The translations under genes and the position numbers were made by a program. This document shows positions 4,442 through 63,014 of a DNA stretch of 64,000 bases, one piece after another. Within the stretch, counting starts at the first letter, position 1; each line of letters opens with the position of its first letter. Origin of the DNA: an uncultured Alphaproteobacteria bacterium (lineage in GTDB: Bacteria > Pseudomonadota > Alphaproteobacteria > RF32 > CAG-239); NCBI GenBank assembly GCA_947588655.1, contig CANPYS010000001.1:6391-70390 (forward strand), read 5' to 3'. The notes beneath the pieces were generated by a model. That model searched no databases. It saw only the letters and a program-made list of their open reading frames with translations, and was not told the origin of the DNA.

Positions 4442-5188
4442 TTAGAAAGCGTAACGAACGCCAAGCAAGAACTCGTGCGCGGTTACATCATAATGTCCGG
4501 TGTTGACGGTTAAGGCCTTTAATCCGGTTGCGCTTTGAACGGTGGTTTCTTTGACTTTGCCGTAATCAGAATATCTGTAACCGGCATCAAAAGAAACTTT
4601 ATCATTCAAGGCATAAGAAACACCGGCGCTGATGTTATAAGCGATATTGTGATCACCTTCGCTACTGCCTTGGTTAATGTATGCGCCATCACCTGCAGGA
4701 CCTGTCACTTTAGTTTTGTTCTTCAAATAAGCATAACCTAAACCGGCGCCGACATAAGGTGTGAACTTTGTGCCCGTGTTGAAGTCATAATAAAGGTTAA
4801 GCATAGCGGAATAAACCGATAATTTGGTTTCAAATTTTTGGTTGTAGGGTTGTTTAATACGGAAAGTGTAGCCGTTAGAATCGCGGGCGTTGCTGTTCCA
4901 GCCTAATTCAAATTCAGCGCGGAGTTGATTGTTATCAAGCGGTTTAACCGTACCGGCGGCAAGTCTTAAACCAAAAACATTATCTTCGTGCTTTTCTTTT
5001 GAAAAAGTATTTAAGTAATGTCCTAAACCGTTAAATGAATAGTCCGAAATTGCATGTGCATCGTTTATCATATGAACGAAGGCTGCTTTGGCAGATACAT
5101 AATAGTTGGAAGTTGTGGCTTCAGTGGCATTGGCACTTGTTGCTAATAAAGCTGTGGCTATGCCAGAAAGTAATATAGTTTTTTTCAT
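4442..5188 (-). CDS. small outer-membrane beta-barrel protein (OmpA-like/Omp25-Omp31-type porin family)
   Basis: Start at MKKTILLSGIATALLATSANA (signal peptide, GGAGA RBS). Alternating amphipathic strands, C-terminal ...GVRYAF aromatic terminus. Confidence 0.7.
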   Translation of the reverse strand: MKKTILLSGIATALLATSANATEATTSNYYVSAKAAFVHMINDAHAISDYSFNGLGHYLNTFSKEKHEDNVFGLRLAAGTVKPLDNNQLRAEFELGWNSNARDSNGYTFRIKQPYNQKFETKLSVYSAMLNLYYDFNTGTKFTPYVGAGLGYAYLKNKTKVTGPAGDGAYINQGSSEGDHNIAYNISAGVSYALNDKVSFDAGYRYSDYGKVKETTVQSATGLKALTVNTGHYDVTAHEFLLGVRYAF

Positions 5189-5446
5189 ATTTAATCTCCA
5201 TAAATAGTTAAAAAATGCCACTTTGATGAAAGGTGGCAGGAAGTAAGAATCTATTTACGGAATAGTGTAGTATATTGGTTATAACAACCTATTTTACTAC
5301 CTTCCTGCCCTAGGCAAAAAGGTAGTGTTTTACATCTGTTTTTACAGATAACCGTAAAGAGGATTCTTGACCCCATATCAGGTATCGCCTGATACAAGGT
5401 TAGATTATCCAAAATATAATAGAAAGTCAAGGTTTAAAATAAAAAA

Positions 5447-5483
5447 AAGAGCCTTCTGTTGCTAAGCGGCTCTCAAGCTCCAC
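5447..5483 (-). terminator. rho-independent terminator oriented for a minus-strand transcript coming from the repeat region
   Basis: Plus strand reads AAAAAAAAGAGCCttctgttgctaagcGGCTCT. The minus-strand reading is a GC stem followed by a T8 run. Confidence 0.45.
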
Positions 5484-5690
5484 TTGTGGCAAACCAATGC
5501 CTCAAGAATTAAGTTTATTGCTTTCGCCTAAATTAAGCAGCGATTGCAACAGGTGCAAAATTATCATTTGCATTCATTTATTTTGAACCGGTAACGGTGG
5601 TTTCTCGCCGAACACAACATCTATCTTTACTGTTGTCCTGTCAAACCTATTTCGCCCCCTACGAAAATGTGCTAAAGCGCTTTCATGCTT

Positions 5691-5937
5691 GGGATTTTTT
5701 CGCTCATTTACGCCTTTTGTAAACTTCGCTCAAAAATCCCTGTGCAGCAAAGCACTTTATCCCATTTTCAACAGGCACCGTGCTTGCTGCCTTTCATACT
5801 TGGAATTTTTTCGCTCATTTACCCATTTTGTAAACTTCGCTCAAAAATCCCTGCGTAGCAAAGACCTTCTCCGCTTTCTTAAGGTCTTAGGGTTTTTGTT
5901 GTTTACGCCTTTTGTAAACTTCGCTCAAAAATCCCTT
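5691..5937. repeat. three tandem imperfect ~50-85-bp units, each an internal palindrome GGGATTTTTT...AAAAATCCC
   Basis: Units at 5691-5740, 5802-5851 and 5890-5937 share ...ttttttcgctcatttacSccttttgtaaacttcgctcaaaaatccct... Flanks are also similar (ctttcatRcttgg / tgYgYagcaaag). Extra hairpin AAGACCTT...AAGGTCTT at 5860-5888. Confidence 0.8.
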
Positions 5938-6220
5938 TAATTGGTGGAGGCGCCGGGTACTGCCCCCGGGTCCAATACACCTATTCCATAGTGTTTTTCG
6001 TGTCAAAGTCGGTTGCCCGACTATTTCTATTATATCTCTTAAACAAAAGAAAGCAAGCTTTTTATTAAAAAACTATTCTTTTGTTTGTTTCAATTCATCT
6101 TTTTAATGTATCCGCTATCTATTCGGTTATATCATTTTGACCGATGTTAGCTCTGTTTTGAGGTATATATTTTTTTTGCTTTCAATCATTTGGCGTCAAA
6201 GTTGCAGTTGAGGAAAATTG

Positions 6221-8755
6221 ATGCCAAATGGTTTTTTTTATAAATCTGCAAGGCTTTTTTTCTTTTTTCAATTAAATCTCACTGCCGCAACAACTTATGC
6301 TTCTGTGATAGATGTTCCTGCCGGTGCGCATCAATCTTTAGACGGCGAAACTTATTATGGCAACGAACTAGAGGTTTCTGATCAGCAGGGCGTGTTGCAT
6401 GGCGGTGTGGTTTATGTTGAACCGGCAGAATCGGGCAAAGCCAGAGGTGTTTTAGACAGTCTGACCAATACCAACTTTTATGAAAATATCGTGACGGCGA
6501 AGGAGAATCTTTCTGTTTGGGGCGGAGCGATTGATAATGATGGCGAGATTACGCTTTTAGACAGTGTGATTTTTACGCATAACCAACTTTTGATAGAAGG
6601 GGAAAATCAGTCAGCATACGGTGGCGCTATTGCGAATCAAAAAGGTGCAATAATTCAACGCTTTGTCAAGGGGAGCTTTGTGGATAATATCGCTCAATCG
6701 GATGCTGGCAATGCCTATGGTGGCGCTATTTATAATGGCGGTGAAATCGGTTCTATGGAAAATGTTTATTTTTCAGAAAATATTGTTCAAGCGCATGGCG
6801 CGGCTTTGGGCGGCGCGCTTTATCATGAGGGTGGCACGCTCTTTTTGAGTGGTATGAATACGTTTGCAGGCAATCAGGCCTCTTCAGATACCGGCCAAGC
6901 GCTGGGTGGCGCGATTTATATGAAATCGGGCGATATCATTTTTTCGGGTATGAATTTCTTTTCATTTAATACGGCTGATGGTGTGGCAAATGATATTTAT
7001 ATTGAAAACGGACGAATTCTTATTCGTGACGGTGAACTTTATTTAGACGGCGGCATTATGGGCAATGGCATTACCCTGATTGCCCCGCAGGCAAAGCTTT
7101 ATTTGCGGCAGACGCTTGCCGATACGGTTATGGAAACAACACTTGTTAATAATGGCATTGTTGCTATTGAAGAGGGCTATCGGGCGCATTTTTCGCGTGA
7201 AACATTTAATAATGGTCTGATTGAAGTGGAGCCCAACGCCGAACTTTATACGACAGGCATTGACAATACCGGCACGTTGACAAACGCGGGTCAATATGTG
7301 AATGAGGGCGATATTTATCTTTTGGGGCAGGGTGTTTTTTTAAATGAGGGTAAAGCAGAAAATAGCGGTATGCTTTCTCTCTCAGATAACTCTTCTCTTA
7401 AGCTTGGCACGCAAAGTCTTTTGCATACAGGCAGTTATCAAGCCAGTGGAACGCCGACTTTGGAGCTTGATGTTTTGCTTAATCCGGAAACACACGAGGT
7501 TACGCACGGCGTTTTGGAGGTTGAGGGCGATGTGATTGGGAAAACGGGCGTTATTTTGCATTTTTTAGATAGTGATCAGGGCTTTCCGAGTATGGAAGGG
7601 TTTTTAAGTGCGTATGTTTTAGCGCCGAATGATGATTTGATGACGCCGGCAGATTTTATTGTTCAACGTATTTGGGGCAGTCCGTTAGATTTTAATTGGC
7701 TGTCGCGTTATAATGCCAAGGGCGATGAAAAAGGAAGTGCTTGGTATTTGGGCGTGTTGCCCCCTGAGCCGAGACAACCTGATTTGCCCTTTGAGTTTGT
7801 GACGCCTCTCCCTGAGCCACCACCACGACCGTCTGTTTATGTGCCGGAAGTGCCGGTTTATGCAGCGTTGGGGCAGGTTTTATATGAGCAGACGCGACAT
7901 TTGTTTGAGGCTGTGCAAAGTGGATTTGCGCCTCAAATTTGCGCTGATTGTGCGTTTTCATCTGATCCGCGGGGTTTTGTTCAGGTGCAGTATCATCATG
8001 TTGCGTTAGACAAGCCCTCAGATGTGAGAGGGCATGTTCAGGCAGTCAATGCTGGTGTGCGGGTTGTGGAAAACGGCGCTTATCAGGCCGGTGTGTTTGG
8101 TCAATACGGCAAAGGAAAATACAGCTTTTCAGGGGCAGGGGATTATCAGGCTTTAAGTGGCGCAAAAATGCGTGTCACGGATTATGTTTTTGGTCTTTAT
8201 CAGCAGTATCAGACAGAAAAATACGGTTTGTTCGGCGCATTATACGGCGGACGGCAAAATATGGGCTTTACAACGGATGACGGCGTGATTGATGAAAACA
8301 CGCATGCAATGGTATATGGAATCGGCGTTTCGGCGGCGCGTTATGTGCCGCTTGCTTTACGTTGGCAACTTGTGCCGTTCGTTTCGGTTCAGGCGGAGCG
8401 GCTAGAGATTGCCGATATTCATGATCAGGCCGGCAAAACGGCGCATTATCACAATCCGCTTTATGGCGAGGCGAGCTTGGGCGCGGCTTTGAAATATGAT
8501 TCATGTGAGGGGCAGAATAAAGCCGGCTTTTATGTCAAACCTTCGGTGGTGCAAACGTTTGGGCGGCATACGGGTGTTCAAATCACGGGGATGAATCAAA
8601 CAAAATCGCAACCCTCACAGACACTCGGGCGGTTTGAACTGGGCGCGGAATTTGCGCATCATGAGCGCATTTCGGGCTATGCCGGCGCGGCTTATACCTT
8701 TGGCAAAGACTATCACGCCTACCAATTCTCCGCAGGGGTAAAGATTGCTTTTTAG
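6221..8755 (+). CDS. autotransporter with Pmp-type (GGAI / FxxN) passenger repeats and C-terminal beta-barrel translocator
   Basis: RBS GAGGAAAA then ATG 6221. Repeated AYGGAI/ALGGAIY and FTHN/FSEN/FAGN/FSFN motifs in the passenger. C-terminal ~280 aa has alternating beta-strands ending FSAGVKIAF. Confidence 0.8.
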   Translation: MPNGFFYKSARLFFFFQLNLTAATTYASVIDVPAGAHQSLDGETYYGNELEVSDQQGVLHGGVVYVEPAESGKARGVLDSLTNTNFYENIVTAKENLSVWGGAIDNDGEITLLDSVIFTHNQLLIEGENQSAYGGAIANQKGAIIQRFVKGSFVDNIAQSDAGNAYGGAIYNGGEIGSMENVYFSENIVQAHGAALGGALYHEGGTLFLSGMNTFAGNQASSDTGQALGGAIYMKSGDIIFSGMNFFSFNTADGVANDIYIENGRILIRDGELYLDGGIMGNGITLIAPQAKLYLRQTLADTVMETTLVNNGIVAIEEGYRAHFSRETFNNGLIEVEPNAELYTTGIDNTGTLTNAGQYVNEGDIYLLGQGVFLNEGKAENSGMLSLSDNSSLKLGTQSLLHTGSYQASGTPTLELDVLLNPETHEVTHGVLEVEGDVIGKTGVILHFLDSDQGFPSMEGFLSAYVLAPNDDLMTPADFIVQRIWGSPLDFNWLSRYNAKGDEKGSAWYLGVLPPEPRQPDLPFEFVTPLPEPPPRPSVYVPEVPVYAALGQVLYEQTRHLFEAVQSGFAPQICADCAFSSDPRGFVQVQYHHVALDKPSDVRGHVQAVNAGVRVVENGAYQAGVFGQYGKGKYSFSGAGDYQALSGAKMRVTDYVFGLYQQYQTEKYGLFGALYGGRQNMGFTTDDGVIDENTHAMVYGIGVSAARYVPLALRWQLVPFVSVQAERLEIADIHDQAGKTAHYHNPLYGEASLGAALKYDSCEGQNKAGFYVKPSVVQTFGRHTGVQITGMNQTKSQPSQTLGRFELGAEFAHHERISGYAGAAYTFGKDYHAYQFSAGVKIAF

Positions 8756-8766
8756 GGATGTCTTTT

Positions 8767-10989
8767 CTAGATTTTCATTGAGCCTAATTTATTTAAAAGC
8801 TCGTCCGCTGTTAGTTTGTTTAAATCTTCCTTAATGCCTTGTGAATCATAATAAACGGTAGAATGAATGGTATTATCTTGTCCAACTTCCCAAATAGCGA
8901 TGACTAAATTTGAAGGAAATAAATCATCTATACGGTTTTTAAAATAATCTTCATAAGCTTTTTTAAGCAATTCTGTTTTTTCTGCGTTAATGTCAGGAAT
9001 ACCCTTAACTTCAATATAAAGGTAAATGCCATTGATAAACTTTAAGATAAAATCAAAATAGCTTTTTTTCACATTAAGAGTGTCGTCTAGATATTCGCCA
9101 AAAATATTAGAGAATGCCAAATTCTTTGCCCACAATTTGATACCGTCTTCATTTTCCGTGTAATCTTTTATTGTTTGAAAAGCGAGCATTTCAGGGGTTG
9201 AATCCAAGGGTTGTTGATTGCCATTGAGTTTGTCCTCCTCGTTAATACTAAACAAGTATTGTTTTTTTGTAATTTCCCTCTTTTTTTGATTATGGGTATA
9301 AATTTCTTGGTATGATTGAGGATCATAAGGTTTTTCTAAAATCTTGTAGCGCGGTTTACAAGTTCTTGTTTTTGATATAATGTTTAAAATATCTTTTTTA
9401 TGTTTTTCCAACAAAACCGTCATTAAAAACTCTTTGAGTATATGGTTTTTCTTTAAAAAGGTGTTTGCTAGAGGGTTTATTAAATCAAACAATTGCTTGT
9501 TGGCGGTTATCAACCTCTTATAATCTCTCAGAAATATAAACGGATTTGTGATTGTCGTATAAATTTGATTGCCGTTTGCTGTGCTTAAAACCTTTTTGTA
9601 TGTTTTATAGTCATTAATAAATATTCTTTTAATTTCCTGTAAAAAAGGATTTTCACTCTCATTTAACCAATCTGTAAACTTTTTCGTAAATTGTTCGTTT
9701 GATTTTGAATTTTTTATTTCCCCTTTATTTTCTATATCTATGGATAAAAATGTTTCGTTTGAAAACTTTTCTCTGACTTTGTAATGATATTCGTTTATTT
9801 CGTCATTTTCTGTTTGTGTATTAGAATAGATATAATATTTTGAGGTTACATCATTGTATTCAAGGTTCGGATAGGGGTTGCGCTTTATTCTGCCTAAGGT
9901 TTGAATATTTAAATTTGTTGAGGATACGTTTCGTAATTGAATCAACATACAAGCTCTTGGAATATCCCATCCTGTTGAGGGACCAATTTTGAAAATGATA
10001 GCGTCAATGTCATTGTTGTTTTCTGTTATTTCATCTAGGGTAAATTTATTTTTATAAACCCTGTTGGAGTCTTTGTCGTTATTGCCAAAATATTGAATCC
10101 ATGCTATATTGTGGCAATCAAGTGTTTTTTTGATGTTTGCTATTCCCTCATGAAAGGCTAGAGATTTGATTTTATCTTTGGGCGCGTCATTATCTACCTG
10201 TATCAGCATAGCAGGGTGAATACCGATGTTTAAGTTGGCGTATTCTTTTTTTATTTGTTGAAAATGTTTAATGGCATCTTCTAAAACTTCTGTGTCTTGT
10301 AAACTTTTATTTAATAGAGATTGTGGAGTTGTTTTTAAAAGATATTTGTCTTCATTAAGCAATCTATTGTTTAAATCACTTTCTTTTAAGATAACTTTTT
10401 GAGTGAATGGATTTCTATAATCCGGTGTTGCTGTCATTTTTAAGACAAATGTGGCGTTATTGTTCATCAGATTTTCAAAATCTTCGTCTTTGTTTGGTTT
10501 CTCTCCACCAATGTGTGCCTCATCTCGGATATAAATCAACTTTAGTCCTTTATCTTTAGCGCAAATTACAAAATCTGTGATAATGCCATATTCGCTTAAA
10601 ATCCGCCCTTTTCCGAAAGATGATTTGCCAAAAATATAAACTTTGTTTTGTTCAGGGATGATTTTGTTTATGCTTTCAGTTTTTTCTGTTTTTGCCGTGG
10701 AAGGCGATTGAATATATTCCACCTCAAATTTTGAATAAGGTAAATCTGTCTTATATTTATTGAGCTTTTGTTCAAAAAAATACGGCAAAGAGGAAGAAGA
10801 TGGGGTTGCAACCACAAAAATAAATTGGTCATTTGGATTGCGTTCAATTATAGAGGATATAAAATAAGACGCCATTAAGGTTTTGCCACTACCTGTGGGT
10901 GCTTTAAATTCACAAACCACTTTTTGAGATGGCTGGTATAAATCCAAAATTTGTTGCACGGTTTTTTGTTGGAGTGAAGTTAGTTCCAT
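8767..10989 (-). CDS. res: Type III restriction enzyme Res subunit (SF2 helicase plus C-terminal PD-ExK nuclease)
   Basis: Walker A APTGSGKT, DEAH box (IRDEAH), motif III TATP, motif VI QTLGRIKR, C-terminal ...YLYIEVKG (ExK). Start ATG overlaps the mod stop (ATGA). Confidence 0.85.
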   Translation of the reverse strand: MELTSLQQKTVQQILDLYQPSQKVVCEFKAPTGSGKTLMASYFISSIIERNPNDQFIFVVATPSSSSLPYFFEQKLNKYKTDLPYSKFEVEYIQSPSTAKTEKTESINKIIPEQNKVYIFGKSSFGKGRILSEYGIITDFVICAKDKGLKLIYIRDEAHIGGEKPNKDEDFENLMNNNATFVLKMTATPDYRNPFTQKVILKESDLNNRLLNEDKYLLKTTPQSLLNKSLQDTEVLEDAIKHFQQIKKEYANLNIGIHPAMLIQVDNDAPKDKIKSLAFHEGIANIKKTLDCHNIAWIQYFGNNDKDSNRVYKNKFTLDEITENNNDIDAIIFKIGPSTGWDIPRACMLIQLRNVSSTNLNIQTLGRIKRNPYPNLEYNDVTSKYYIYSNTQTENDEINEYHYKVREKFSNETFLSIDIENKGEIKNSKSNEQFTKKFTDWLNESENPFLQEIKRIFINDYKTYKKVLSTANGNQIYTTITNPFIFLRDYKRLITANKQLFDLINPLANTFLKKNHILKEFLMTVLLEKHKKDILNIISKTRTCKPRYKILEKPYDPQSYQEIYTHNQKKREITKKQYLFSINEEDKLNGNQQPLDSTPEMLAFQTIKDYTENEDGIKLWAKNLAFSNIFGEYLDDTLNVKKSYFDFILKFINGIYLYIEVKGIPDINAEKTELLKKAYEDYFKNRIDDLFPSNLVIAIWEVGQDNTIHSTVYYDSQGIKEDLNKLTADELLNKLGSMKI

Positions 10990-12689
10990 TATTTTTCTCC
11001 GTCATTTTGTTTTTGTGGATTAAGGGCGGATAAATCGTTATAAATGTCAAAATCATTGCACGGATGATAGTTTTCATTCAGCTTTTTAAACTCTAGTTTT
11101 GCTTTTTCTTTTAATTCTTCTGCTTTTTCTAAATCTTGTAATGTGAGTTCTGTCGTTTCAATATTAAATACGCGGACGGCATTGTTTGTGAGATAGGGTT
11201 TTTCTTTTGTATATGTCCACTCTATCTTTTCTCCATTGCTTCCTTTACCGTTAATAACGCGGTATAGCCGCTCGCGTGTGATTTTTTCGCCGATACCATT
11301 TTCATTATTTGTAACCAAAATAAATTTGCGCTTTCCGCCGTCTTCTTCATTAAGTTCCATGACGGCTTGCCCTGTTGTGCCACTACCTGCATAAAAATCA
11401 AGGATTGTTGAATCTTGTTTTTTTATGCCTTTAATTAAATATGTAATTAATTCTATAGGCTTTGGATTTCCGAATAATCTTTCATTAAGTAATTTTTCTA
11501 GCTCTTTTGTTCCATTACTACTTGAAATGTTGATGAAACTTTTTAGAGGACCTTCCGATATTACTTTTTTTTGTTTTGCATCTATAAATATTTTTTTTAC
11601 AACACTATACCCAAGAGATGTTTCCTTGATGTAAATTTTATCTCTTTCCTCATTAAATTTATTAAGCTTCCAAGTCCAACGCCCTAACTTATTTCCTTTT
11701 TTAGGAGGTCTTATCTTAATATATCCTTTTTTTAATAATGTTAGATTATCTTTATAAACTTCATCTTCTATATTATTTGTCTTTGCTTTTTCTATATCAT
11801 AATCAGCTACAGCAATTTTATCTTTTGTGCTTGGATTATAGTATATTGTGTAACCTAAATTAGGTCTTCGATTTAAAGTGCCTCCTGCACCTCCCGTTAG
11901 AATTCCAGAACCTTCATAAAAAGATTCCCCATTTTCTTGTATAACTTTTATACTTTTTTCTGTTTCCACAGAAAGAAGATTTTTTTGATTTTTCTTGGCT
12001 ATTATAAGAATGTATTCATGATTTTTTTGTAAATTATCGGCATCATTTTGGGCGTTCCCTTTTAGCCAAATTAAATTTCCAACAAAATTTTCTTCCCCAA
12101 AAATTTCATCGCATAGGACTTTTAAATAAGCTTGTTCGCTGTCGTCTATGGAGATAAAAATTACGCCCGTGTCGCTTAATAATCGTTTTGCCAGTTTTAA
12201 GCGTTCATTGAGCATATTAAGCCAACCATCGCGAGTGAACTTATCTCTGTAAATAAATTTTTCTGCCTTTATTTCTTCTTTATAATCATTGCCGTCAGCT
12301 TTTGAGGCTTCTGTGTTATAAGGTGGATCAATATAGATGACATCAATCAGACCTTTGCCATTTTTATCTATATAAGTGGCGCACAAGTTCTTTAGGGCAT
12401 CATAATTTTCACCAATAATCAGCTTATGTTCTAATTTTCCGTCAAAATCTATGTTTATACCTAATTCTCTGTTTTCCTTTATAAGGGCTACGGCATCATG
12501 ATTAACTTCCGGTGCTTCATCAAATACAAAACCTGTTTTTACACGCTGTGTAATTAAGTTATAAACTGCGTTTAAGTCATTATCAGCGGTGTTCTCAATA
12601 ATTTTCTTGGCAATTTGCTTTTGCTCCTTGTTAAAAGAAACAGTCGGTATTCTTTCAAGTTTTGCAATGTATTCTTCTTTTAATGCCAT
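10989..12689 (-). CDS. mod: Type III Mod subunit, beta-class N6-adenine DNA methyltransferase
   Basis: Motif IV DVIYIDPPYNT lies N-terminal to motif I FYAGSGTTGQAV (beta-class order). Central variable region (TRD). Translationally coupled to res. Confidence 0.85.
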   Translation of the reverse strand: MALKEEYIAKLERIPTVSFNKEQKQIAKKIIENTADNDLNAVYNLITQRVKTGFVFDEAPEVNHDAVALIKENRELGINIDFDGKLEHKLIIGENYDALKNLCATYIDKNGKGLIDVIYIDPPYNTEASKADGNDYKEEIKAEKFIYRDKFTRDGWLNMLNERLKLAKRLLSDTGVIFISIDDSEQAYLKVLCDEIFGEENFVGNLIWLKGNAQNDADNLQKNHEYILIIAKKNQKNLLSVETEKSIKVIQENGESFYEGSGILTGGAGGTLNRRPNLGYTIYYNPSTKDKIAVADYDIEKAKTNNIEDEVYKDNLTLLKKGYIKIRPPKKGNKLGRWTWKLNKFNEERDKIYIKETSLGYSVVKKIFIDAKQKKVISEGPLKSFINISSSNGTKELEKLLNERLFGNPKPIELITYLIKGIKKQDSTILDFYAGSGTTGQAVMELNEEDGGKRKFILVTNNENGIGEKITRERLYRVINGKGSNGEKIEWTYTKEKPYLTNNAVRVFNIETTELTLQDLEKAEELKEKAKLEFKKLNENYHPCNDFDIYNDLSALNPQKQNDGEK

Positions 12690-25768: not shown

Positions 25769-26275
25769 GAATCGCGTTTCATAAGCTAGGAAAAGTAAAG
25801 AATTTACTTTATCGTCACTCACAAGAGTTTGCTATAACTGATGGTTAGGGAATGATAAGTAACACTTTCACCTTGTTTGGGTGAATTTGGATTTTTAGAT
25901 TAGGCATTGGAACAAAACAGGTGGAGATTGTGTAGCACTCTCCGCCTGTACTTCTATTTGTGACTTTTAGATTTAACTGAGCAAGAGAATATATAAAAAG
26001 CACTAAGAATCAATAACTTATTAACAAAACGTATGCAAAAAAAAGTAGAGGTTAAAAAACAACAATTACTTTTGTTGTTTTTTTTGCTCTTCTTGCTCGT
26101 AAGTGTTGCGATGAACGCAAAACTAACTCGCTTCGGTCACCGCTCTGTAACGCTTGCTTTGGCGCCTATCGGCGTCTTGCAAGCTAACACTCGCGTTATC
26201 TCGCCCAAAAAACACCAATTACTTTTGGTGTTTTTTGGGCTCTACGCCTCAGAATGACGCAAATATTACCATTAA

Positions 26276-26543
26276 AATCAACAACTTATCAACAAAATGC
26301 ATGCAAAAAAAGGTACCTTTAAATGTGCATTTTGTCAAGCAAAAAATTTTGAGATATTTCAAAAGGTTATTTTCTTGATGAAATGTGCATTTAAACGTAC
26401 GTTTTTTTGAGAAGATTCTCAAAGGTCATCCTGAACTCGTTTCAGGATCTCATAAAAAAAGATGCTGAAACAAGTTCAGCATGACATTTGGGGCGTTCAG
26501 CATGACGATTCGGATGGAGAACTTTATAATTAAGGAGTAAAGA
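26276..26543 (+). promoter_or_regulatory. conserved ~250-bp upstream cassette of paralog family (copy 1)
   Basis: AAATGTGCATTT at 26321-26332 and 26381-26392. TGAGAAGATTCTCA. Hairpin arm1 26424-26453 / A7 / arm2 26461-26485. TGACGATTCGG. RBS TAAGGAG. Confidence 0.75.
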
Positions 26544-27593
26544 ATGAAGTACGTTTTATTTTTAGTTATGGTTTTGTTTTCAAATCAGGCGGTGGCGCTG
26601 AATTGTGAAAAGCAACCGACATGTGAGGAGTTAAATTATTCCAAAGAAGATGATCCACAATGCGCCGATGACGGCTATATCTTATGTCCGTTTGACTTTT
26701 CCTATAAAAAATGTTTACAGCCTGATTGTGAAAAATTAGGTTTTACATCATCTGAAAAATCAGGTTGGTGTTCTGAAATTATTACTTGTCCGCAAGATTC
26801 TTCTTATACGGCTTGCAACTGTCTTAAGCCACGTTGCAACATCGGCGATGTGTTGTATGCGGACAGCTCTTGTGGCGATGTCAAAGATTACAGCGAAGAT
26901 AAAGTTGCGGTTGGTGTGGTTTATTACACAAACTGCGATGGTGGTGGCAAGGTGATTAGTCTTAAAGATTTAACGCTTGATTCAAACTATGTTTTTCACC
27001 CAACAGAGCCTTTTGGCAACACCGCTCTTTACAAGTTTCCTTGGGGACTTTCTGGCGTAACTGTTCCAGGCTTGAAATATAAGTGGGCTACTAATGAACA
27101 ATTCTTGCTCGCTCTTCAAACAAGAGATCCTGACTTTTTCAACGGCGAAAAAGATACGCAAACTTTGATTAATTTCAAGAAAGACTCTTGCTCTTATGAT
27201 GAAGGCACAAAAGGATATGCTGAGTATTGCGTGGCGACGGCGGCTTTGGCGGCGCATCAATTTTATCCGCTTGGCGTTGAGCCAAACAATACGATTGTCG
27301 GCGCAGGGCGTTGGTATTTGCCCTCTCTTGGCGAGCTAACCGAACTTTATGGCTATGATTATGACCAAGTTACGACATGGGATACTGGAAAAACGGGCAA
27401 AACAAAAGAAAAAGTCACTCAGACGCTTACAACGCTTGAAGGCAAAGCGGAACCTTTAAAAAATATTGAATACTGGGCTTCAATTGAATACTCTGGAGAT
27501 ATTGCTTATGAATTGAAAGCTGACGGTTCTATCAGCAAATATTATAAAAAAGATCCGCACTGCGCTGTCCGCGCCAGTTTGAACTTTCGGTAA
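26544..27593 (+). CDS. secreted Cys-rich paralog P1: conserved N-module plus DUF1566/Lcl-C-like C-terminal domain
   Basis: Signal peptide ...QAVA|LNCE. N-module NCEKQPTCEELNYSKEDDPQCADDGYILCPFDFSYKKCLQPDCEKLGFT. C-terminal WYLPSLGEL, YWASIEY and ...HCAVRASLNFR match DUF1566-type motifs. Confidence 0.8.
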   Translation: MKYVLFLVMVLFSNQAVALNCEKQPTCEELNYSKEDDPQCADDGYILCPFDFSYKKCLQPDCEKLGFTSSEKSGWCSEIITCPQDSSYTACNCLKPRCNIGDVLYADSSCGDVKDYSEDKVAVGVVYYTNCDGGGKVISLKDLTLDSNYVFHPTEPFGNTALYKFPWGLSGVTVPGLKYKWATNEQFLLALQTRDPDFFNGEKDTQTLINFKKDSCSYDEGTKGYAEYCVATAALAAHQFYPLGVEPNNTIVGAGRWYLPSLGELTELYGYDYDQVTTWDTGKTGKTKEKVTQTLTTLEGKAEPLKNIEYWASIEYSGDIAYELKADGSISKYYKKDPHCAVRASLNFR

Positions 27594-27636: not shown

Positions 27637-27831
27637 CAAAACCAGCTTGCAGTTTTTCCTTTTTAACACAAATGATGACGGCGGTTATTCAGCGGGACAC
27701 AGGCAAAAGAGCCTCCTTGCCTTCTTTTTGTCTTCCGGCACATTGTTTGCCGAAATTTGGCGTAAAATTATGCTGAGCGCGGTAGAACCCTAAAAAATTC
27801 AAGATTTTTTGAAGCCTAAAATTTTATAAAA

Positions 27832-28102
27832 TTCAAGAATTTATCAACAAAATGTGTGCAAAAAAAGGTACCTTTAAATGTGCATTTTGTCAAGCAAAAA
27901 ATTTTGAGATATTTCAAAAGGTTATTTTCTTGATGAAATGTGCATTTAAACGTACGTTTTTTTGAGAAGATTCTCAAAGGTCATCCTGAACTCGTTTCAG
28001 GATCTCATAAAAAGAGATGCTGAAACAAGTTCAGCATGACTTTTGGGGTCGTTTCAGGATGACGATTCGGATGGGAGGACTTTTTTATTTAAGGAGTAAA
28101 AA
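27832..28102 (+). promoter_or_regulatory. conserved upstream cassette (copy 2)
   Basis: Near-identical to 26276-26543 including both hairpins and palindromes. Confidence 0.75.
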
Positions 28103-32900: not shown

Positions 32901-33042
32901 CCGCTCATCTAGAGGCGTTTTTACGGGTCTCGGGAAATTCACGTACCTCTTTTGTACGCTGGAATTTCCCTCGCCCTTAAAACACCTCTATCTAAACGGT
33001 TCTCCGCCTTTCCACGGCTTGGGAGAAAATTAAGAAAACGTC

Positions 33043-33078: not shown

Positions 33079-33109
33079 GAATAAAAAAATCAAGTAAAAT
33101 CAAAGAAAT

Positions 33110-33377
33110 GTCTCAAAAAAACGTACGTCATTATTTACAACTTGTCAAGTGAAAAAAATTGGGTTTTTCAATAACTTATTTTTGCAAAAAAATGCACAAA
33201 AAAACGTACGTTTTTTTGAGATAGGGAAAAACTTTCTCTCAAACGTCATGCTGAGCTTTGGTGCGTTAGCACCATTCGCGAAGCATCCAGGAACAGTATA
33301 GCTAATTTGTTGTCCTGGACTCTTCGCCTGCAGCTCAGAGTGACGATTCGGCAGAGTTCGTAATTAAGGAGAAAAAA
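33110..33377 (+). promoter_or_regulatory. degenerate copy of the upstream cassette (copy for P3)
   Basis: Retains AAACGTACGTTTTTTTGAGA core, GTCATGCTGA, TGACGATTCGG and TAAGGAG. Central hairpins replaced. Confidence 0.55.
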
Positions 33378-34562
33378 ATGAAGTATGTTTTATTTTTGAT
33401 GTTGGTATTGTTTTCAAGTCAGGCGGTGGCGCTTAATTGTGAAAGGCAACCGACTTGTGAAGAATTGGGTTATTCTACGCAAAATAATCCAAACTGTTTA
33501 GATGACGGTTATTTAATTTGCCCGTTTGATTCTAATTATAAGAAATGCGTCAACTTTAGTTGCGAATCGCTCGGGTTTACGCTATCCGATAAATCGGGCT
33601 GGTGCGCTGAAACAATAGAATGTAAAGGTGATAAAAGTTATACTCTTTGCAAAACATCTTGTATTGCTTGGGATTCTGATACGCTTTCCATGCTTGCCGA
33701 ATCGGGCAAATGTAAGCTCATCACGATGAAAAATGACATCACGCTTTCAGAAGATAAGCTCAACGTTTCCGCAAACACCATGATTGACGGTGGTGGGCAT
33801 ACGCTTCATGTGTCGGCGAATATAAACCCGATAGATTTACAAGCGAACAGCGGTCTCAAAAATCTTAACTTGGATGTAAAGGGTACCGGCGTTAAACAAG
33901 GTTATATTCTTCTTCCGCAAGGTAATGGAGTTCTCTTTGAAAACCTGACGGTTGCGGTTTCTGGCATGACACAAAAATATAATGCAGGGCTTGTTGGTAT
34001 GTCAAATTTTTCTGCCGAATTTAGAGGTCAAACAAATCTGAATTCAAATTATTATAGTGTCTTTTTCAATAGTGATCATATTAACTTTACAAATGCGCAA
34101 GCCACTCTTTTTGCCGCTAATGATTTAATGAAAAGTTCCAACGTCACACTTCACAATTCCACACTTGATATTACAATGAGTACTGTTCTCATGACGCGCT
34201 CTAAATTAACGCTTTACAATTCCACACTCCATTTTACAGGCACACATTTGTTCTGGACAGGAAGTTCAACGGTAGAAAATGTCTTGACAATCGGGGAGGG
34301 TTCCACCGCGGTGATTAAAGTTTCAAACGGTCTGAATATGGAAAGTACTAGAAAATCAAATTTTGTGTTAAGCGGGACAGCAGATGCGCCAGCAAAGTTA
34401 GAAATTACGACACCTGATAAAAATAATAATGAAACATATATCACAGCTCATAACATAACGGATACGCTTGTCTTAAATAACAAGACATATCATCCAACGC
34501 AAACAGCTACAACGCTTATATCGGATGTTCCAAACTCAAGTTATTGGCGCGCTGTGCCATAG
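33378..34562 (+). CDS. secreted Cys-rich paralog P3: conserved N-module fused to parallel beta-helix-like C-terminal domain
   Basis: N-terminal 95 aa homologous to P1/P2/P4/P5 (NCERQPTCEELGYS...CPFD..YKKC). Remainder has repetitive NxT/beta-strand periodicity (LHNSTLDIT..., LYNSTLHFT...) and lacks the DUF1566 motifs. Confidence 0.7.
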   Translation: MKYVLFLMLVLFSSQAVALNCERQPTCEELGYSTQNNPNCLDDGYLICPFDSNYKKCVNFSCESLGFTLSDKSGWCAETIECKGDKSYTLCKTSCIAWDSDTLSMLAESGKCKLITMKNDITLSEDKLNVSANTMIDGGGHTLHVSANINPIDLQANSGLKNLNLDVKGTGVKQGYILLPQGNGVLFENLTVAVSGMTQKYNAGLVGMSNFSAEFRGQTNLNSNYYSVFFNSDHINFTNAQATLFAANDLMKSSNVTLHNSTLDITMSTVLMTRSKLTLYNSTLHFTGTHLFWTGSSTVENVLTIGEGSTAVIKVSNGLNMESTRKSNFVLSGTADAPAKLEITTPDKNNNETYITAHNITDTLVLNNKTYHPTQTATTLISDVPNSSYWRAVP

Positions 34563-42560: not shown

Positions 42561-42756
42561 CCACGAGGGAATGCGTCTAATGGGCGCCTTTTGGAAATGC
42601 GTCTAGCTGGCACCTAGAGCAATTTAAGGGGCAAAAGTGTCCTCACGTACGCTTTTAGTACGCTGTGGTACTTTTGCCCCTTAAATCACTCTATCTGCAC
42701 ACGCTATCCGCATTTCCGAGGACTATGATTAAAAATAAGGATTCGATATTAAAAAA

Positions 42757-42790
42757 ACGTCCATTTCAAAATGGACGTTTTTTGTTGCTT
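42757..42790 (+). terminator. rho-independent terminator after nifJ (same hairpin as 33043-33078)
   Basis: AAAACGTCCATTTCAAAATGGACGTTTTTTGTTG. Confidence 0.65.
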
Positions 42791-42799
42791 TAATATAGC

Positions 42800-42908
42800 A
42801 ATTTAAAGGTACCTTTAAATTGATGCGATTCGACAGCCACCGAACGTCATGCTGAACTTGTTTCAGCATCTCTTTGATGAGATCCCGAAACAAGTCCGGA
42901 ATGACAAA
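42800..42908 (-). repeat. orphan reverse-oriented fragment of the paralog upstream cassette (double-hairpin part)
   Basis: GTCATGCTGAACTTGTTTCAGCATCTCTTTGATGAGATCCCGAAACAAGTCCGGAATGAC is the reverse complement of the arm1-A-arm2 element. No paralog gene follows on the minus strand. Confidence 0.6.
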
Positions 42909-42921
42909 GAAAAAACAAGAA

Positions 42922-43387
42922 AATCAATAACTTATCATCAAAACATGTGCAAAAAAAGGTACCTTTAAATGTGCAATTTGTCAAGAAAAATTTTTGAGAT
43001 TTTTCAAAAGGTTATTTTCTTGATAAAACGTGCATTTAAACGTACGTTTTTTTGAGAAATGTGTATAGCGGCACATCTAAAGCCGTTTTTTCAAGTTCGG
43101 AAAATTCACGTACGTCTATGTACGCTCAAATTTTCCTCACTTTTGAAACGACTTTATCTGCACCACTCTCCACATTTCTTTGGCTAGAACAAGAGAGGGA
43201 AAGTCTCTCTAAAATGTCATTTCCAAACTCGTTTCGGGATCTCATAAAAAGAGATGCTGAAACAAGTTCAGCATGACATTTGGGGTGTTTTGGGGATGAC
43301 GATTCGGAAGAGTTTGTTGTCCTAGACTCTTCGCTGACGCTCAGAGTGACCATGACGGCGGAAATAGTGACGAACAAGGAGGAAAGA
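42922..43387 (+). promoter_or_regulatory. upstream cassette (copy for P4), interrupted by ~150 bp of unrelated repeat sequence
   Basis: First half 42922-43050 matches the cassette (AAATGTGCAATTT..., AACGTGCATTTAAACGTACG). 43055-43205 differs (shares gaaaattcacgtac...tacgct with 32926-32990). Arm2/TGACGATTCGG/RBS resume at 43205-43387. Confidence 0.6.
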
Positions 43388-44506: not shown

Positions 44507-44759
44507 AAAGGCTATGGAACGCGTCTAGCGGACACCTAGAGCAATTTAATGGGCAAAACTGTCCTCACGTACGTCTTATGGTCTAACTCGTTTCGGTCTT
44601 GCTCGTAAGTTTTGCGTAAAACGCAAACTAACTTGTTTCGGTCACCGCTCTGTAACGCTTGCCGTCAAATCCGATTTTTTCTGGCGCTTTTTGTTGTTTC
44701 TATTCGCCTCATTATCTGTCTTTCCTAAGGTTTACTAACGTCCGTCATGACCAAAATTT

Positions 44760-62744: not shown

Positions 62745-63014
62745 TTTTTCCTCCTTATTTACAGACTCCACCATCCGAATCGTCATACTGAAACGATCCC
62801 AAATGTCATGCTGAACTTGTTTCAGCATCTCTTTTTATGAGATCCTGAAACGAGTTCAGGATGACCTTTGAGAATCTTCTCAAAAAAACGTACGTTTAAA
62901 TGCGCATTTCATCAAGAAAATAACCTTTTGAAAAATCTCAAAAAAAAATCCTTGACAAATTGCGCATTTAAACGTACCTTTTTTTGCACACGTTTTGATG
63001 ATAAGTTGTTGTTT
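62745..63014 (-). promoter_or_regulatory. upstream cassette (copy for P5, minus orientation)
   Basis: Reverse complement matches copies 1 and 2. Here both 12-mers are the perfect palindrome AAATGCGCATTT. Confidence 0.75.

What the first reader, a model, noticed from the sequence alone, without database searches (positions are those of the whole stretch)
26276..26543. Conserved ~250-bp palindrome-rich cassette precedes every paralog (plus orphan, inverted and degenerate copies)
Copies occur at 26276-26543, 27832-28102, 42922-43387 (interrupted), 62745-63014 (minus) and a degenerate one at 33110-33377. Each contains a 12-mer AAATGYGCATTT twice, about 60 bp apart; it is perfectly palindromic AAATGCGCATTT in the P5 copy. 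Each also contains the palindrome TGAGAAGATTCTCA and two 21-nt hairpins, ATCCTGAA-ctcgt-TTCAGGAT and ATGCTGAA-acaag-TTCAGCAT, separated by an A-run. The two hairpins are reverse complements of each other (3 mismatches), so they can form either two local stem-loops or one long 21-bp duplex. Downstream follow the box TGACGATTCGG and the RBS TAAGGAG. This architecture fits a shared operator-plus-leader. Paired dimer-binding sites flank a promoter, and the leader RNA has alternative foldings (attenuator or riboregulator). Either could co-regulate the family or impose on/off switching on it. Propagation as a unit to five loci, plus an orphan reversed fragment at 42800-42908 and a stub at 26010-26045, also suggests a mobile promoter module.
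Basis: seen in the sequence. Interest (0 to 1): 0.8.

Follow-up and report, generated by a model that had tools for sequence, protein, structure and literature searches.

The report
Shared palindromic promoter-leader of a secreted-protein family
The repeated ~270-bp block is the common upstream region of five related secreted-protein genes in an uncultured gut alphaproteobacterium, and its "hairpins" are copies of a known palindromic repeat (CGTC-type REP) found across many bacteria, not a riboswitch-like regulator specific to this family.

Summary
The cassette is real. It precedes all five paralogs: secreted, Cys-rich, with a weakly Lcl_C/DUF1566-like C-terminus.

It consists of two adjoining long palindromes.
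- **Palindrome 1 (26304-26408).** It has two A7-SGTACS-T boxes 84 bp apart. That spacing is kept in three unrelated sequence types (83-84 bp; 73 bp in one). A TTGACA-17-TACSTT motif always faces away from the gene. A weaker mirror image faces the gene in type I only.
- **Palindrome 2 (26425-26485).** It is an inverted dimer of CGTC-tagged REP units, the superfamily that includes Neisseria dRS3. The same 25-mers occur in more than 120 unrelated metagenome contigs and in Sphingobium, Novosphingobium and Treponema replicons.

Leaders differ between paralogs and strains by module swaps, nested insertions and two independent in-place inversions of the REP dimer. A related allele is a mosaic of P2-, P4-, P5- and P1-like segments. 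The cassette therefore spreads by segmental duplication and recombination, not as an autonomous element.

No Rfam family, sense-strand terminator, anti-SD pairing, regulator or recombinase was found.

Best reading: a shared promoter plus a NIME-like REP leader. Promoter position and any switching remain untested.

The parts
26276..26543 (+). P1 cassette (type I), upstream of paralog P1 (26544-27593)
26304..26408 (.). Palindrome 1, a 105-nt near-perfect palindrome. Box cores are GGTACC at 26312-26317 and CGTACG at 26396-26401, 84 bp centre to centre. The AAATGTGCATTT 12-mers lie at 26321-26332 and 26381-26392.
   Evidence: DNA fold z = -7.0. Box spacing and the TTGTCAA offset hold in every instance. 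12-mers.
26310..26338 (-). Promoter-like TTGACA (26338-26333), 17-nt spacer, TACCTT (26315-26310). It points away from the gene.
   Evidence: TTGTCAA lies 14 nt from the gene-distal box core in all 20 box pairs (19 plus L134) and never in the mirror position. Read. The -10 is only 3 of 6, below the threshold of the scanner.
26375..26403 (+). Promoter-like TTGATG, 17-nt spacer, TACGTT, pointing towards the gene. The predicted start is about 26409-26411.
   Evidence: Read. L012 has TTGACG-17-TACCTT at this place. Types II and III lack a -35 here. This assignment is inferred, not mapped.
26408..26421 (+). Small palindrome TGAGAAGATTCTCA at the predicted 5' end of the transcript
   Evidence: 100% identical in P1, P2, P5 and L012. 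Replaced by other GAGA...TCTC hairpins in P3, P4 and L136.
26425..26485 (.). Inverted dimer of CGTC-type REP units. Unit A is GTC-ATCCTGAA-ctcgt-TTCAGGAT-CTC. Unit B lies on the minus strand as GTC-ATGCTGAA-cttgt-TTCAGCAT-CTT. Tags face outward and an A-run forms the spacer.
   Evidence: unit structure; cosmopolitan family; family definition; 98-100% identity among copies.
26473..26513 (+). Two tandem units of GTTCAGCATGAC plus about 10 nt (period 21-23 nt).
   Evidence: Half-sites. Three units with 22-nt period in L005. Three or more in L135. The same grammar occurs in unrelated metagenome loci.
26532..26546 (+). SD AAGGAG (26532-26537) and the ATG start codon (26544)
   Evidence: Invariant. 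Unpaired in the MFE and centroid folds.
27831..28102 (+). P2 cassette (type I), upstream of P2 (28103-29029). It is preceded at 27662-27830 by a decayed 3' end of a PBP gene.
62745..63014 (-). P5 cassette (type I), upstream of P5 (62744-61671)
42922..43387 (+). P4 cassette (type I), upstream of P4 (43388-44506). It is interrupted by a MITE-like insertion at 43059-43190. The first REP unit is degenerate, and an extra P3-like module lies at about 43309-43375.
33099..33377 (+). P3 cassette (type III), upstream of P3 (33378-34562). Boxes are 83 bp apart. The leader has different inner hairpins, closed by GTCATGCTGAGC / GCTCAGAGTGAC.
   Evidence: The L139 ortholog shows compensatory changes in the inner hairpin (GGTGC/GCACC versus GACGC/GCGTC).
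42790..42908 (+). Remnant of a type II cassette. It has a type II left flank, a single GGTACC box (42805-42816), TGATGCGATTCGAC, and a REP dimer (42846-42905) inverted relative to L134.
   Evidence: Compared with L007 and L134. Dimer identity forward 0.77, reverse 0.92.
26008..26047 (+). Stub: the cassette's 5' flank up to the middle of box 1, followed by element X (26048-26262, minus-strand sense) and a half box
   Evidence: repeat family D5; X matches L007 9716-9884 and L135 192-338.

Best explanation
The cassette is the common promoter-plus-leader region of a lineage-specific family of secreted proteins. The proteins have a Cys-rich N-terminus and a variable, weakly Lcl_C/DUF1566-like C-terminus.

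**Shown**
- The cassette is two adjoining long palindromes.
- The upstream palindrome has two A7-SGTACS-T boxes held 84 bp apart (83-84 bp; 73 bp in one allele). That is a whole number of helical turns, kept across three unrelated inner sequences.
- The downstream palindrome is an inverted dimer of CGTC-tagged REP units. It is followed by 2-3 tandem REP half-sites and then an unpaired SD.
- The REP units belong to a cosmopolitan family.
- Leaders are mosaics of REP-bounded modules. They differ between paralogs and strains by insertion, replacement and in-place inversion.
- Alleles are mosaics of different paralogs.

**Inferred**
- Transcription starts at the gene-proximal box (-10 TACSTT), at about 26409.
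- The mRNA would then begin with a small hairpin followed by the long REP hairpin. These would act as a 5' stabiliser or an RNase III substrate rather than as a switch.
- The boxes and the 12-mers are protein-binding sites.
- The conserved cassette plus the conserved 5' coding region serve as a homology tract. Through it the paralogs exchange segments, in the way proposed for Neisseria NIME arrays next to surface-protein genes.
- The cassette multiplies with its gene by segmental duplication.
For: **Architecture and conservation:**. The block 26408-26485 is 98-100% identical. Flanking segments are 53-91% and the C-terminal coding sequence is below 50%.

**Boxes:** 20 of 20 pairs are spaced 83-84 bp (73 bp in L134), each with the same TTGTCAA offset.

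**Promoter lies within palindrome 1:** one L007 copy has only 57 nt between box 2 and the ATG.

**REP membership**
- Tag, 8-bp stem starting A-T then T-A, 5-nt loop, 3-nt tail, inverted dimer: against the definition in PMC3733652.
- More than 120 exact metagenome hits.
- 77 of 116 partner candidates fold as hairpins, against 0-4 when the register is shifted. There are 17 stem variants with compensatory changes.
- Exact matches in Sphingobium, Novosphingobium and Treponema.
- Neighbouring genes show no enrichment for any family.

**Folding:** one long hairpin, z = -4.3, with the SD free. The P3 leader is closed by GTCA...TGAC arms.

**Dynamics**
- Dimer inverted in L005 vs P4: forward 0.73, reverse 0.85. 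Remnant vs L134: forward 0.77, reverse 0.92.
- Module swaps.

**Duplication and recombination**
- A PBP gene fragment lies upstream of P2.
- The L005 allele is a mosaic: P2-like context, P4-only MITE, then P5-like and P1-like coding sequence.

**NIME precedent:** PMC1797815.

**Protein family:**
Against: - There is no transcript data.
- Both -10 candidates (TACSTT) match only 3 of 6 positions, whereas the tRNA promoters in the window are canonical TTGACA-17-TATATA and TTGATT-17-TATAAA. The generic scan finds no conserved sigma-70 promoter in the cassette.
- The only strictly conserved -35 (TTGACA) points away from the gene, and this reading does not explain it.
- Types II and III lack a gene-facing -35.
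- The role of the REP dimer in RNA stability or processing is inferred by analogy only.
- Its near-invariance could reflect constraints acting on REPs everywhere rather than a function for this gene.
- Only about 150 kb of this lineage was sampled.
Confidence: 0.55

Rival explanations
1. Invertible mini-promoter (phase variation). The two boxes would be recombinase sites. The 84-bp segment would carry the only good -35 (TTGACA), which reads outward (OFF) in all assemblies. Flipping would place it 17 nt from the gene-proximal TACSTT (ON). If only one of N paralogs is ON per cell, the consensus at each locus would be OFF.
For: - 25-nt inverted repeats with a palindromic GTAC core flank the segment.
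- The TTGACA always faces away from the gene, 20 of 20.
- Types II and III have no gene-facing -35.
- The spacing is held to whole helical turns: 84, 83 and 73 bp.
- No divergent gene exists that the outward promoter could serve.
- The host is a gut organism and the products are secreted or surface-type proteins.
- Precise loss of the inter-box segment in the remnant at 42805-42816 shows the boxes recombine.
Against: - No flipped copy was seen among 20 instances from several samples.
- No recombinase gene lies in the 64 kb.
- 84 bp is shorter than any inverton I know of (my own recollection).
- In type I the flip would only change TTGATG to TTGACA.
- The deletion can also be explained by slippage between the approximately 17-bp direct repeats.
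Confidence: 0.12
2. The AAATGYGCATTT pair would be a dedicated operator for a dimeric regulator. The hairpin pair would be a leader RNA switch (attenuator or riboregulator) that co-regulates the family.
For: - Palindromic 12-mers sit in the spacers of both mirror promoters, 60 bp apart.
- Two alternative folds exist.
- The hairpin block is nearly invariant in four copies.
Against: - The hairpins are generic CGTC REPs.
- Neither fold sequesters the SD or forms a sense-strand terminator.
- The dimer is inverted, degenerate or replaced in P3, P4, L005, L134, L135 and L139.
- The 12-mers are absent from types II and III.
- No Rfam match.
- No regulator gene lies nearby.
Confidence: 0.1
3. Neutral hitch-hiking. 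The palindromes would be selfish or junk repeats that landed once in an ancestral leader. Their conservation would reflect only recent duplication or gene conversion.
For: - Leaders tolerate insertions, inversions and replacements.
- According to PMC3733652, CGTC REPs cannot be important chromosome components.
- There is evidence of gene conversion.
Against: - A sharp 78-nt island is 98-100% identical while the flanks are 53-91%, including in a copy from another strain.
- The box spacing and the TTGTCAA offset are kept across three unrelated inner sequences.
- Stems are kept by compensatory changes.
Confidence: 0.15
4. An autonomous mobile promoter module, that is, a MITE-like foldback element with outward-facing promoters, comparable to a Correia element.
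For: - Palindrome 1 is a 105-bp foldback with 25-nt terminal inverted repeats and mirror promoter-like hexamers.
- Remnants and a stub exist.
Against: - Every full copy sits in front of a paralog.
- Duplicates carry flanking gene fragments.
- No target-site duplication and no transposase were seen.
- The three types share length and box positions but not inner sequence, which points to a functional constraint rather than a transposed copy.
Confidence: 0.05

Closest known systems
CGTC-tagged REP superfamily (Di Nocera, De Gregorio and Rocco 2013, PMC3733652), which includes Neisseria dRS3 and Rickettsia RPE-4/RPE-6
   Same: - An unpaired (C/T/G)GTC tag.
- An 8-bp stem whose first two pairs are A-T and T-A.
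- A 5-nt loop and a 3-nt tail (CTC or CCA).
- Mostly inverted dimers that can fold as one long hairpin.
- Found mainly in Alphaproteobacteria, and also in Spirochaetes.
- No associated transposase.
   Different: - In about 150 kb of this lineage, every clean unit lies in the 5' leaders of one gene family, and none lies in other intergenic regions.
- REPs are usually found downstream of genes.
- The dimers here have a very short spacer (11-13 nt) and are followed by tandem half-site arrays.
- In-place inversion of the dimer between strains is not described in that paper (0 occurrences of "inversion").
Neisserial intergenic mosaic elements (NIME arrays: dRS3 units flanking RS modules; Bentley et al. 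2007, PMC1797815)
   Same: - REP-type units of the same superfamily bound variable modules.
- The arrays lie next to variable cell-surface or secreted protein genes.
- The arrays are dynamic between strains.
- Recombination end points fall in or near them.
   Different: - That paper states NIMEs had not been observed outside Neisseria.
- The arrays here are short (1-4 units) and always lie in the 5' leader between a conserved promoter region and the SD.
- The host is an alphaproteobacterium.
- No dRS3-specific recombinase or phage was seen.
REPIN / BIME elements with RAYT transposases (E. coli, Pseudomonas)
   Same: Two REPs in inverted orientation form one long hairpin. Proposed roles include mRNA stabilisation and transcription attenuation.
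   Different: The tag is GTC(A), not GTAG. No RAYT (Y1 transposase) gene was found among the Pfam-scanned ORFs of the window.
Correia elements (CREE/nemis) of Neisseria
   Same: A palindromic element of about 100-150 bp lies upstream of genes and affects their expression (PMC1797815). From my own recollection, these elements carry outward-facing promoter hexamers and their transcribed hairpin is cut by RNase III.
   Different: There is no sequence similarity and no evidence of transposition. Here the element is tied to one gene family.
Invertible promoters (fimS; Bacteroides and other gut invertons)
   Same: Inverted repeats flank a promoter upstream of surface-protein genes in a gut bacterium.
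   Different: The segment is only 84 bp. Both orientations have not been observed. No recombinase was found.

Membership tests
CGTC-tagged REP (PMC3733652) | Unpaired terminal tag CGTC (often TGTC or CCTC) at one end | tested here: met
   All 10 clean units in the window begin with GTC, preceded by G, T or C. The metagenome partner units do the same.
CGTC-tagged REP (PMC3733652) | Stem of 8-9 bp with complementary A/T residues in the first and second positions, and a loop of 4-5 nt | tested here: met
   Stems are 8 bp (ATCCTGAA, ATGCTGAA, ATTCCGGA) with 5-nt loops CTCGT or CTTGT. Position 1 is A-T in 76 of 77 partner units. Position 2 is T-A or C-G.
CGTC-tagged REP (PMC3733652) | Short unpaired 3-nt tail (consensus CCA) | tested here: met
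   Tails here are CTC or CTT. Among the metagenome partners: CTC 24, CCA 14, CTT 13.
CGTC-tagged REP (PMC3733652) | Units mostly arranged as inverted dimers | tested here: met
   Every cassette unit is in an inverted dimer with tags outward. 66 metagenome loci have an inverted partner. Whether this is the paper's "HH" or "TT" arrangement could not be checked because the figures are not held.
CGTC-tagged REP (PMC3733652) | A family of many dispersed extragenic copies per genome | tested here: inconclusive
   Only 64 kb of the genome plus about 86 kb of relatives were available. All clean copies are in paralog leaders and none lies elsewhere. The genome-wide count is unknown.
NIME-like array | REP (dRS3-type) units flanking variable modules, next to variable surface-protein genes, and dynamic between strains | tested here: met
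   - GTCA...TGAC units bound the modules: hairpins, element X and the MITE.
- The flanking genes have coding sequences that are under 50% identical towards the C-terminus.
- Strain differences and a mosaic allele were found.
NIME-like array | The arrays promote recombination of the adjacent gene | not testable with these tools
   Only one mosaic allele (L005) shows exchange points in or near the cassette. Recombination rates cannot be measured here.
REPIN / RAYT system | GTAG tag and an associated RAYT (IS200/IS605-like Y1 transposase) | tested here: not met
   The tag is GTC(A). No Y1 transposase was found among the ORFs scanned.
Inverton (invertible promoter) | Inverted repeats flanking a promoter | tested here: met
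   25-nt inverted repeats flank TTGACA-17-TACSTT.
Inverton (invertible promoter) | Both orientations present in the population | tested here: not met
   Of the 20 assembled instances, none is flipped. Consensus assemblies cannot show minority orientations, so read-level data are still needed.
Inverton (invertible promoter) | A site-specific recombinase | tested here: not met
   None was found in the window. One could be encoded elsewhere in the genome.
Riboswitch / transcription attenuator | A known aptamer, or a terminator/anti-terminator or SD-sequestering alternative fold in the sense RNA | tested here: not met
   - No Rfam family reaches its gathering score. The only hits are generic long-hairpin matches far below threshold.
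- Terminator-like hairpins occur only on the antisense strand.
- The SD is unpaired in the predicted fold.

The most novel reading that the evidence does not exclude
Each paralog may be controlled by two stacked DNA flip switches made of palindromes.
1. **An 84-bp mini-inverton.** It would be held to whole helical turns between two GTAC-core boxes. It would redirect the only good -35 hexamer towards or away from the gene.
2. **The REP dimer.** Its in-place inversion was seen twice between strains. It would move the hairpin-plus-T-run, now always antisense, onto the sense strand, where it would act as a terminator.

Together these would give stochastic expression of one family member at a time. 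The CGTC tags would be the cleavage and joining sites of an unknown recombinase. That would also give this "orphan" REP superfamily its first mechanism.
Probability: 0.1. Interest if true: 0.75.

Novelty: new variant of a known kind. Interest (0 to 1): 0.4.

Why it matters
- **A route to function for CGTC REPs.** They are widespread but have no known mobilising enzyme or function. Here they sit only in the 5' leaders of one variable secreted-protein family, are nearly invariant there, and have flipped in place between strains. That gives a tractable setting in which to test what they do: RNA stability, RNase III processing, recombination or switching.
- **NIME-like arrays outside Neisseria.** The arrangement resembles a NIME array, which the Neisseria literature describes as not seen outside that genus (PMC1797815).
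- **Gut biology.** The data suggest that an uncultured alphaproteobacterial lineage diversifies a family of adhesin-like proteins by recombination through a shared cassette.
- **A practical caution.** "Conserved hairpins upstream of paralogs" should be checked against REP families before being read as riboregulators.

Tried and rejected
- **Rfam.** At gathering thresholds nothing matches at the cassette. At permissive E-values only generic miRNA-precursor-like long-hairpin hits appear, far below threshold.
- **Literature search for the hairpin sequences.** It returned only unrelated primer matches.
- **Leader peptide.** A 37-codon ORF starts at 26298 in P1 and has a counterpart in P2. It has no start codon in P5 and is out of frame in P4, so I rejected it (read).
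- **The ATGACG-17-TATAAT promoter hit at 26502-26530.** It is specific to P1 and would start transcription inside the SD, so I rejected it.
- **Sigma-54, sigma-32 and ECF-type motifs.** I saw no convincing match by eye. This was not tested formally.
- **A gene associated with the REP.** The 150 ORFs flanking the metagenome hits fall into 180 Pfam families with no enrichment. GIY-YIG occurs in only 2.
- **Orientation bias of the REP relative to neighbouring ORFs.** None was found.
- **Regulator or recombinase in the window.** None was found.
- **Distant homologs in other Alphaproteobacteria MAGs (L001-L004).** They lack the cassette.
- **Look-ups that returned nothing.** Exact-protein look-ups failed for P1, P0053 and P0020.
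- **Wobble-pair bias as a test of RNA-level versus DNA-level selection.** 3 G-T pairs against 6 A-C/C-A pairs, so it is uninformative.
Full report
**1. Host and genes**

The window is a housekeeping region with about 41% G+C. It carries an alphaproteobacterial-type permuted tmRNA, PFOR, an Fe-only hydrogenase and a glycogen metabolism gene cluster. The only relatives of the paralogs in the species-level genome collection are fecal or uncultured "Alphaproteobacteria bacterium" MAGs, at 31-42% identity.

There are five paralogs:
- P1, 26544-27593
- P2, 28103-29029
- P3, 33378-34562
- P4, 43388-44506
- P5, 62744-61671 on the minus strand

They share a signal peptide and a Cys-rich N-terminal region of about 100 aa, then diverge. 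Three have sub-threshold Lcl_C (PF07603/DUF1566) hits at the C-terminus. Thirteen of the 79 database homologs carry that domain. The family is small and confined to closely related metagenome contigs.

**2.

The cassette copies are at the stated coordinates and are far beyond chance. P4 is interrupted. P3 shares only the 5' architecture, TGACGATTCGG and the SD.

Conservation is uneven:

| Segment | Identity among P1, P2, P5 and L012 |
|---|---|
| 26408-26485 (TGAGAAGATTCTCA plus hairpin pair) | 98-100% |
| Upstream palindrome | 78-100% |
| RBS region | 53-73% |
| Signal peptide | 78-88% |
| Cys-rich domain | 64-76% |
| Remainder of the coding sequence | under 52% |

L012 is a copy from another strain.

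**3. Anatomy of the upstream half**

Positions 26304-26408 form a 105-nt near-perfect palindrome (DNA fold z = -7.0). Its ends are two boxes of the form A-run, SGTACS, T-run.

Related contigs show three cassette types with unrelated inner sequences:
- Type I: P1, P2, P4, P5, L005, L012
- Type II: L007, L134, and the remnant at 42790-42908
- Type III: P3, L136

All types keep the two boxes. Spacing is 84 bp centre to centre in 16 instances, 83 bp in three (P3, its duplicate locus L011, and P4), and 73 bp in L134, which is one helical turn less. All keep TTGTCAA exactly 14 nt inside the gene-distal box. On the opposite strand this reads TTGACA-17-TAC(C/G)TT and points away from the gene. No divergent gene exists to use it.

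Only type I has a gene-facing mirror: TTGATG-17-TACGTT in P1 and TTGACG-17-TACCTT in L012. The AAATGYGCATTT 12-mers are the spacers of these mirror promoters and are specific to type I.

The tRNA promoters in the window are canonical, TTGACA-17-TATATA and TTGATT-17-TATAAA. The TACSTT -10 candidates are therefore weak, and the generic scan does not report them.

One L007 copy has only 57 nt between box 2 and the ATG. The promoter must therefore lie in this palindrome. I place the start just after the gene-proximal box, at about 26409. This is an inference.

**4. Anatomy of the downstream half**

Each hairpin reads GTC-AT......AT-CTC, with an 8-bp stem and a 5-nt loop. The two units are inverted with their tags outward.

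A degenerate 25-mer covering either unit has more than 120 exact hits in metagenome contigs. The hits come from soil, marine, sludge, fermenter and gut samples, in both high-GC and low-GC contexts. Exact matches also occur in Sphingobium, Novosphingobium and Treponema saccharophilum replicons.

Of 116 GTCA candidates upstream of those hits, 77 form the same 8-bp/5-nt hairpin, against 0-4 when the register is shifted. There are 17 stem variants with compensatory changes at five positions. Sixty-six loci have an inverted partner. The flanking ORFs are a random set of housekeeping genes.

This matches feature by feature the CGTC-tagged REP superfamily of Di Nocera et al. (PMC3733652). That superfamily occurs mostly in Alphaproteobacteria, lacks a dedicated transposase, and includes Neisseria dRS3 and Rickettsia RPE-4/6.

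After the dimer come tandem units of GTTCAGSATGAC plus about 10 nt, with a period of 21-23 nt. There are two units in P1, P2 and P5, three in L005, and more in L135. TGACGATTCGG is simply the end of the last unit. The same grammar occurs in unrelated metagenome loci.

**5. RNA considerations**

The leader's minimum-energy fold is one long hairpin made from the REP dimer (z = -4.3). The SD is unpaired. The P3 leader has different inner hairpins but is closed by the same GTCA...TGAC arms. Its ortholog L139 keeps an inner hairpin through two compensatory changes.

Terminator-like REP-plus-T-run configurations exist only on the strand antisense to the gene in P1, P2, P4 and P5. Rfam has nothing. 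So there is no sign of an attenuator or an SD-sequestering switch. A 5' stabiliser or an RNase III substrate is the most economical RNA-level role. That role is inferred.

**6. Dynamics**

- In L005 the cassette and its MITE insertion are 93-98% identical to P4, yet the 61-bp REP dimer is inverted (forward 0.73, reverse 0.85).
- The dimer in the remnant at 42846-42905 is inverted relative to L134 (forward 0.77, reverse 0.92).
- The breakpoints coincide with the GTCAT/ATGAC tags.
- Leaders also differ by nested modules: the MITE-like element, element X, and a GAAGAGTCCAGGAC hairpin.
- The "orphan" is a type II cassette that has precisely lost its inter-box segment.
- The stub at 26008-26047 is a cassette 5' flank ending in the middle of a box. 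It is followed by element X and a half box.

**7. How it spreads**

- P2 is preceded by a decayed 3' end of the PBP gene that lies intact upstream of the paralog in L005 and L007.
- The L005 allele is a mosaic: P2-like context, P4-only MITE, P2-like tandem and RBS, a P5-like first 150 nt of coding sequence, then P1-like sequence.
- No cassette occurs without a paralog.
- No transposase, recombinase or regulator lies in the window.
- Several metagenome contigs break inside the cassette (L010, L013, L135), as expected for a multi-copy repeat.
- In about 150 kb of this lineage, every clean CGTC unit lies in a paralog leader.

The closest precedent is the Neisseria NIME array. There, dRS3 units bound variable modules next to variable surface-protein genes, and the arrays are proposed to promote recombination. 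They were said not to occur outside Neisseria (PMC1797815).

**8. Verdict**

The cassette is a shared promoter region plus a NIME-like, REP-built leader. It is propagated and shuffled by duplication and recombination.

The family-specific riboregulator and the autonomous mobile-module ideas are not supported.

What stays unexplained, and is the most interesting part:
- the strictly conserved, away-facing TTGACA between boxes phased at whole helical turns;
- the confinement of a cosmopolitan REP to one gene family's leaders, and its near-invariance there;
- the repeated in-place flipping of the dimer.

These leave open a low-probability reading in which the palindromes are DNA flip switches.

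Noticed in passing
window 5445-6060 (minus strand): A permuted (alpha-type) tmRNA scores 195 bits in Rfam over 616 nt against a 355-position model. ARAGORN did not call it. It contains a 78-nt direct repeat (5680-5757 and 5791-5868, 90% identical) in the intervening part.
   Followed up: no
window 32905-33030, 42575-42720, 43059-43190, 44518-44720; also L005 4236-4370, L007 8120-8250, L136 7790-7920, L139 1-100: A MITE-like palindromic element of about 130 nt with core CACGTAC...GTACGC. It usually sits directly after stop codons and before the terminator. One copy is inserted in the P4 cassette. The copy at 44518 is itself interrupted at its GTAC core by a fragment of element X.
   Followed up: partly
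window 26048-26262 (minus-strand sense) and 44598-44662; L007 9716-9884; L135 192-338: Element X is a module of about 170-200 nt bounded by two similar A-run/T-run hairpins (AAAAACAMCAAAAGTAATTGKTGTTTTT). It lies in sense orientation inside the leaders of other family members. In the window it lies upstream of the P1 cassette in the opposite orientation. It has no Rfam match.
   Followed up: partly
window 27662-27830: A decayed 3' end of a penicillin-binding protein gene (Transgly/Transpeptidase). It is 88-92% identical to the intact gene end upstream of the paralog in L005. It is a footprint of the segmental duplication that created the P1-P2 arrangement.
   Followed up: yes
L014-L133 (metagenome loci) and plasmid hits H1-H4: REP units with identical 25-mers occur in clearly unrelated bacteria, in high-GC and low-GC contexts, including Sphingomonadales and a Treponema. 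Only a few stem variants dominate (ACCCTGAA, ATCCTGAA, ATGCTGAA, ATTCCGAA). What keeps the sequence the same across phyla is unexplained.
   Followed up: partly
window 8767-12689 (minus strand): A Type III restriction-modification pair (ResIII helicase and N6_N4 methylase) lies in a low-GC patch (0.32-0.38), next to tRNA-Val. It is possibly horizontally acquired.
   Followed up: no
window 33378-34562 (P3), repeats at 34118-34238: P3 shares only the N-terminal region of about 100 aa with the other paralogs. Its C-terminal part is different and contains internal 58-nt repeats. It has no Lcl_C signal.
   Followed up: no
L134 128-206: The box-to-box spacing is 73 bp here instead of 84 bp, which is one helical turn less. 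The TTGTCAA offset is unchanged.
   Followed up: yes
window 4442-5221 (minus strand) and 6218-8755: An Opa-like or OMP beta-barrel protein gene and an autotransporter gene with Chlamydia-PMP-type repeats flank the tmRNA. They are further surface proteins in the same region.
   Followed up: no
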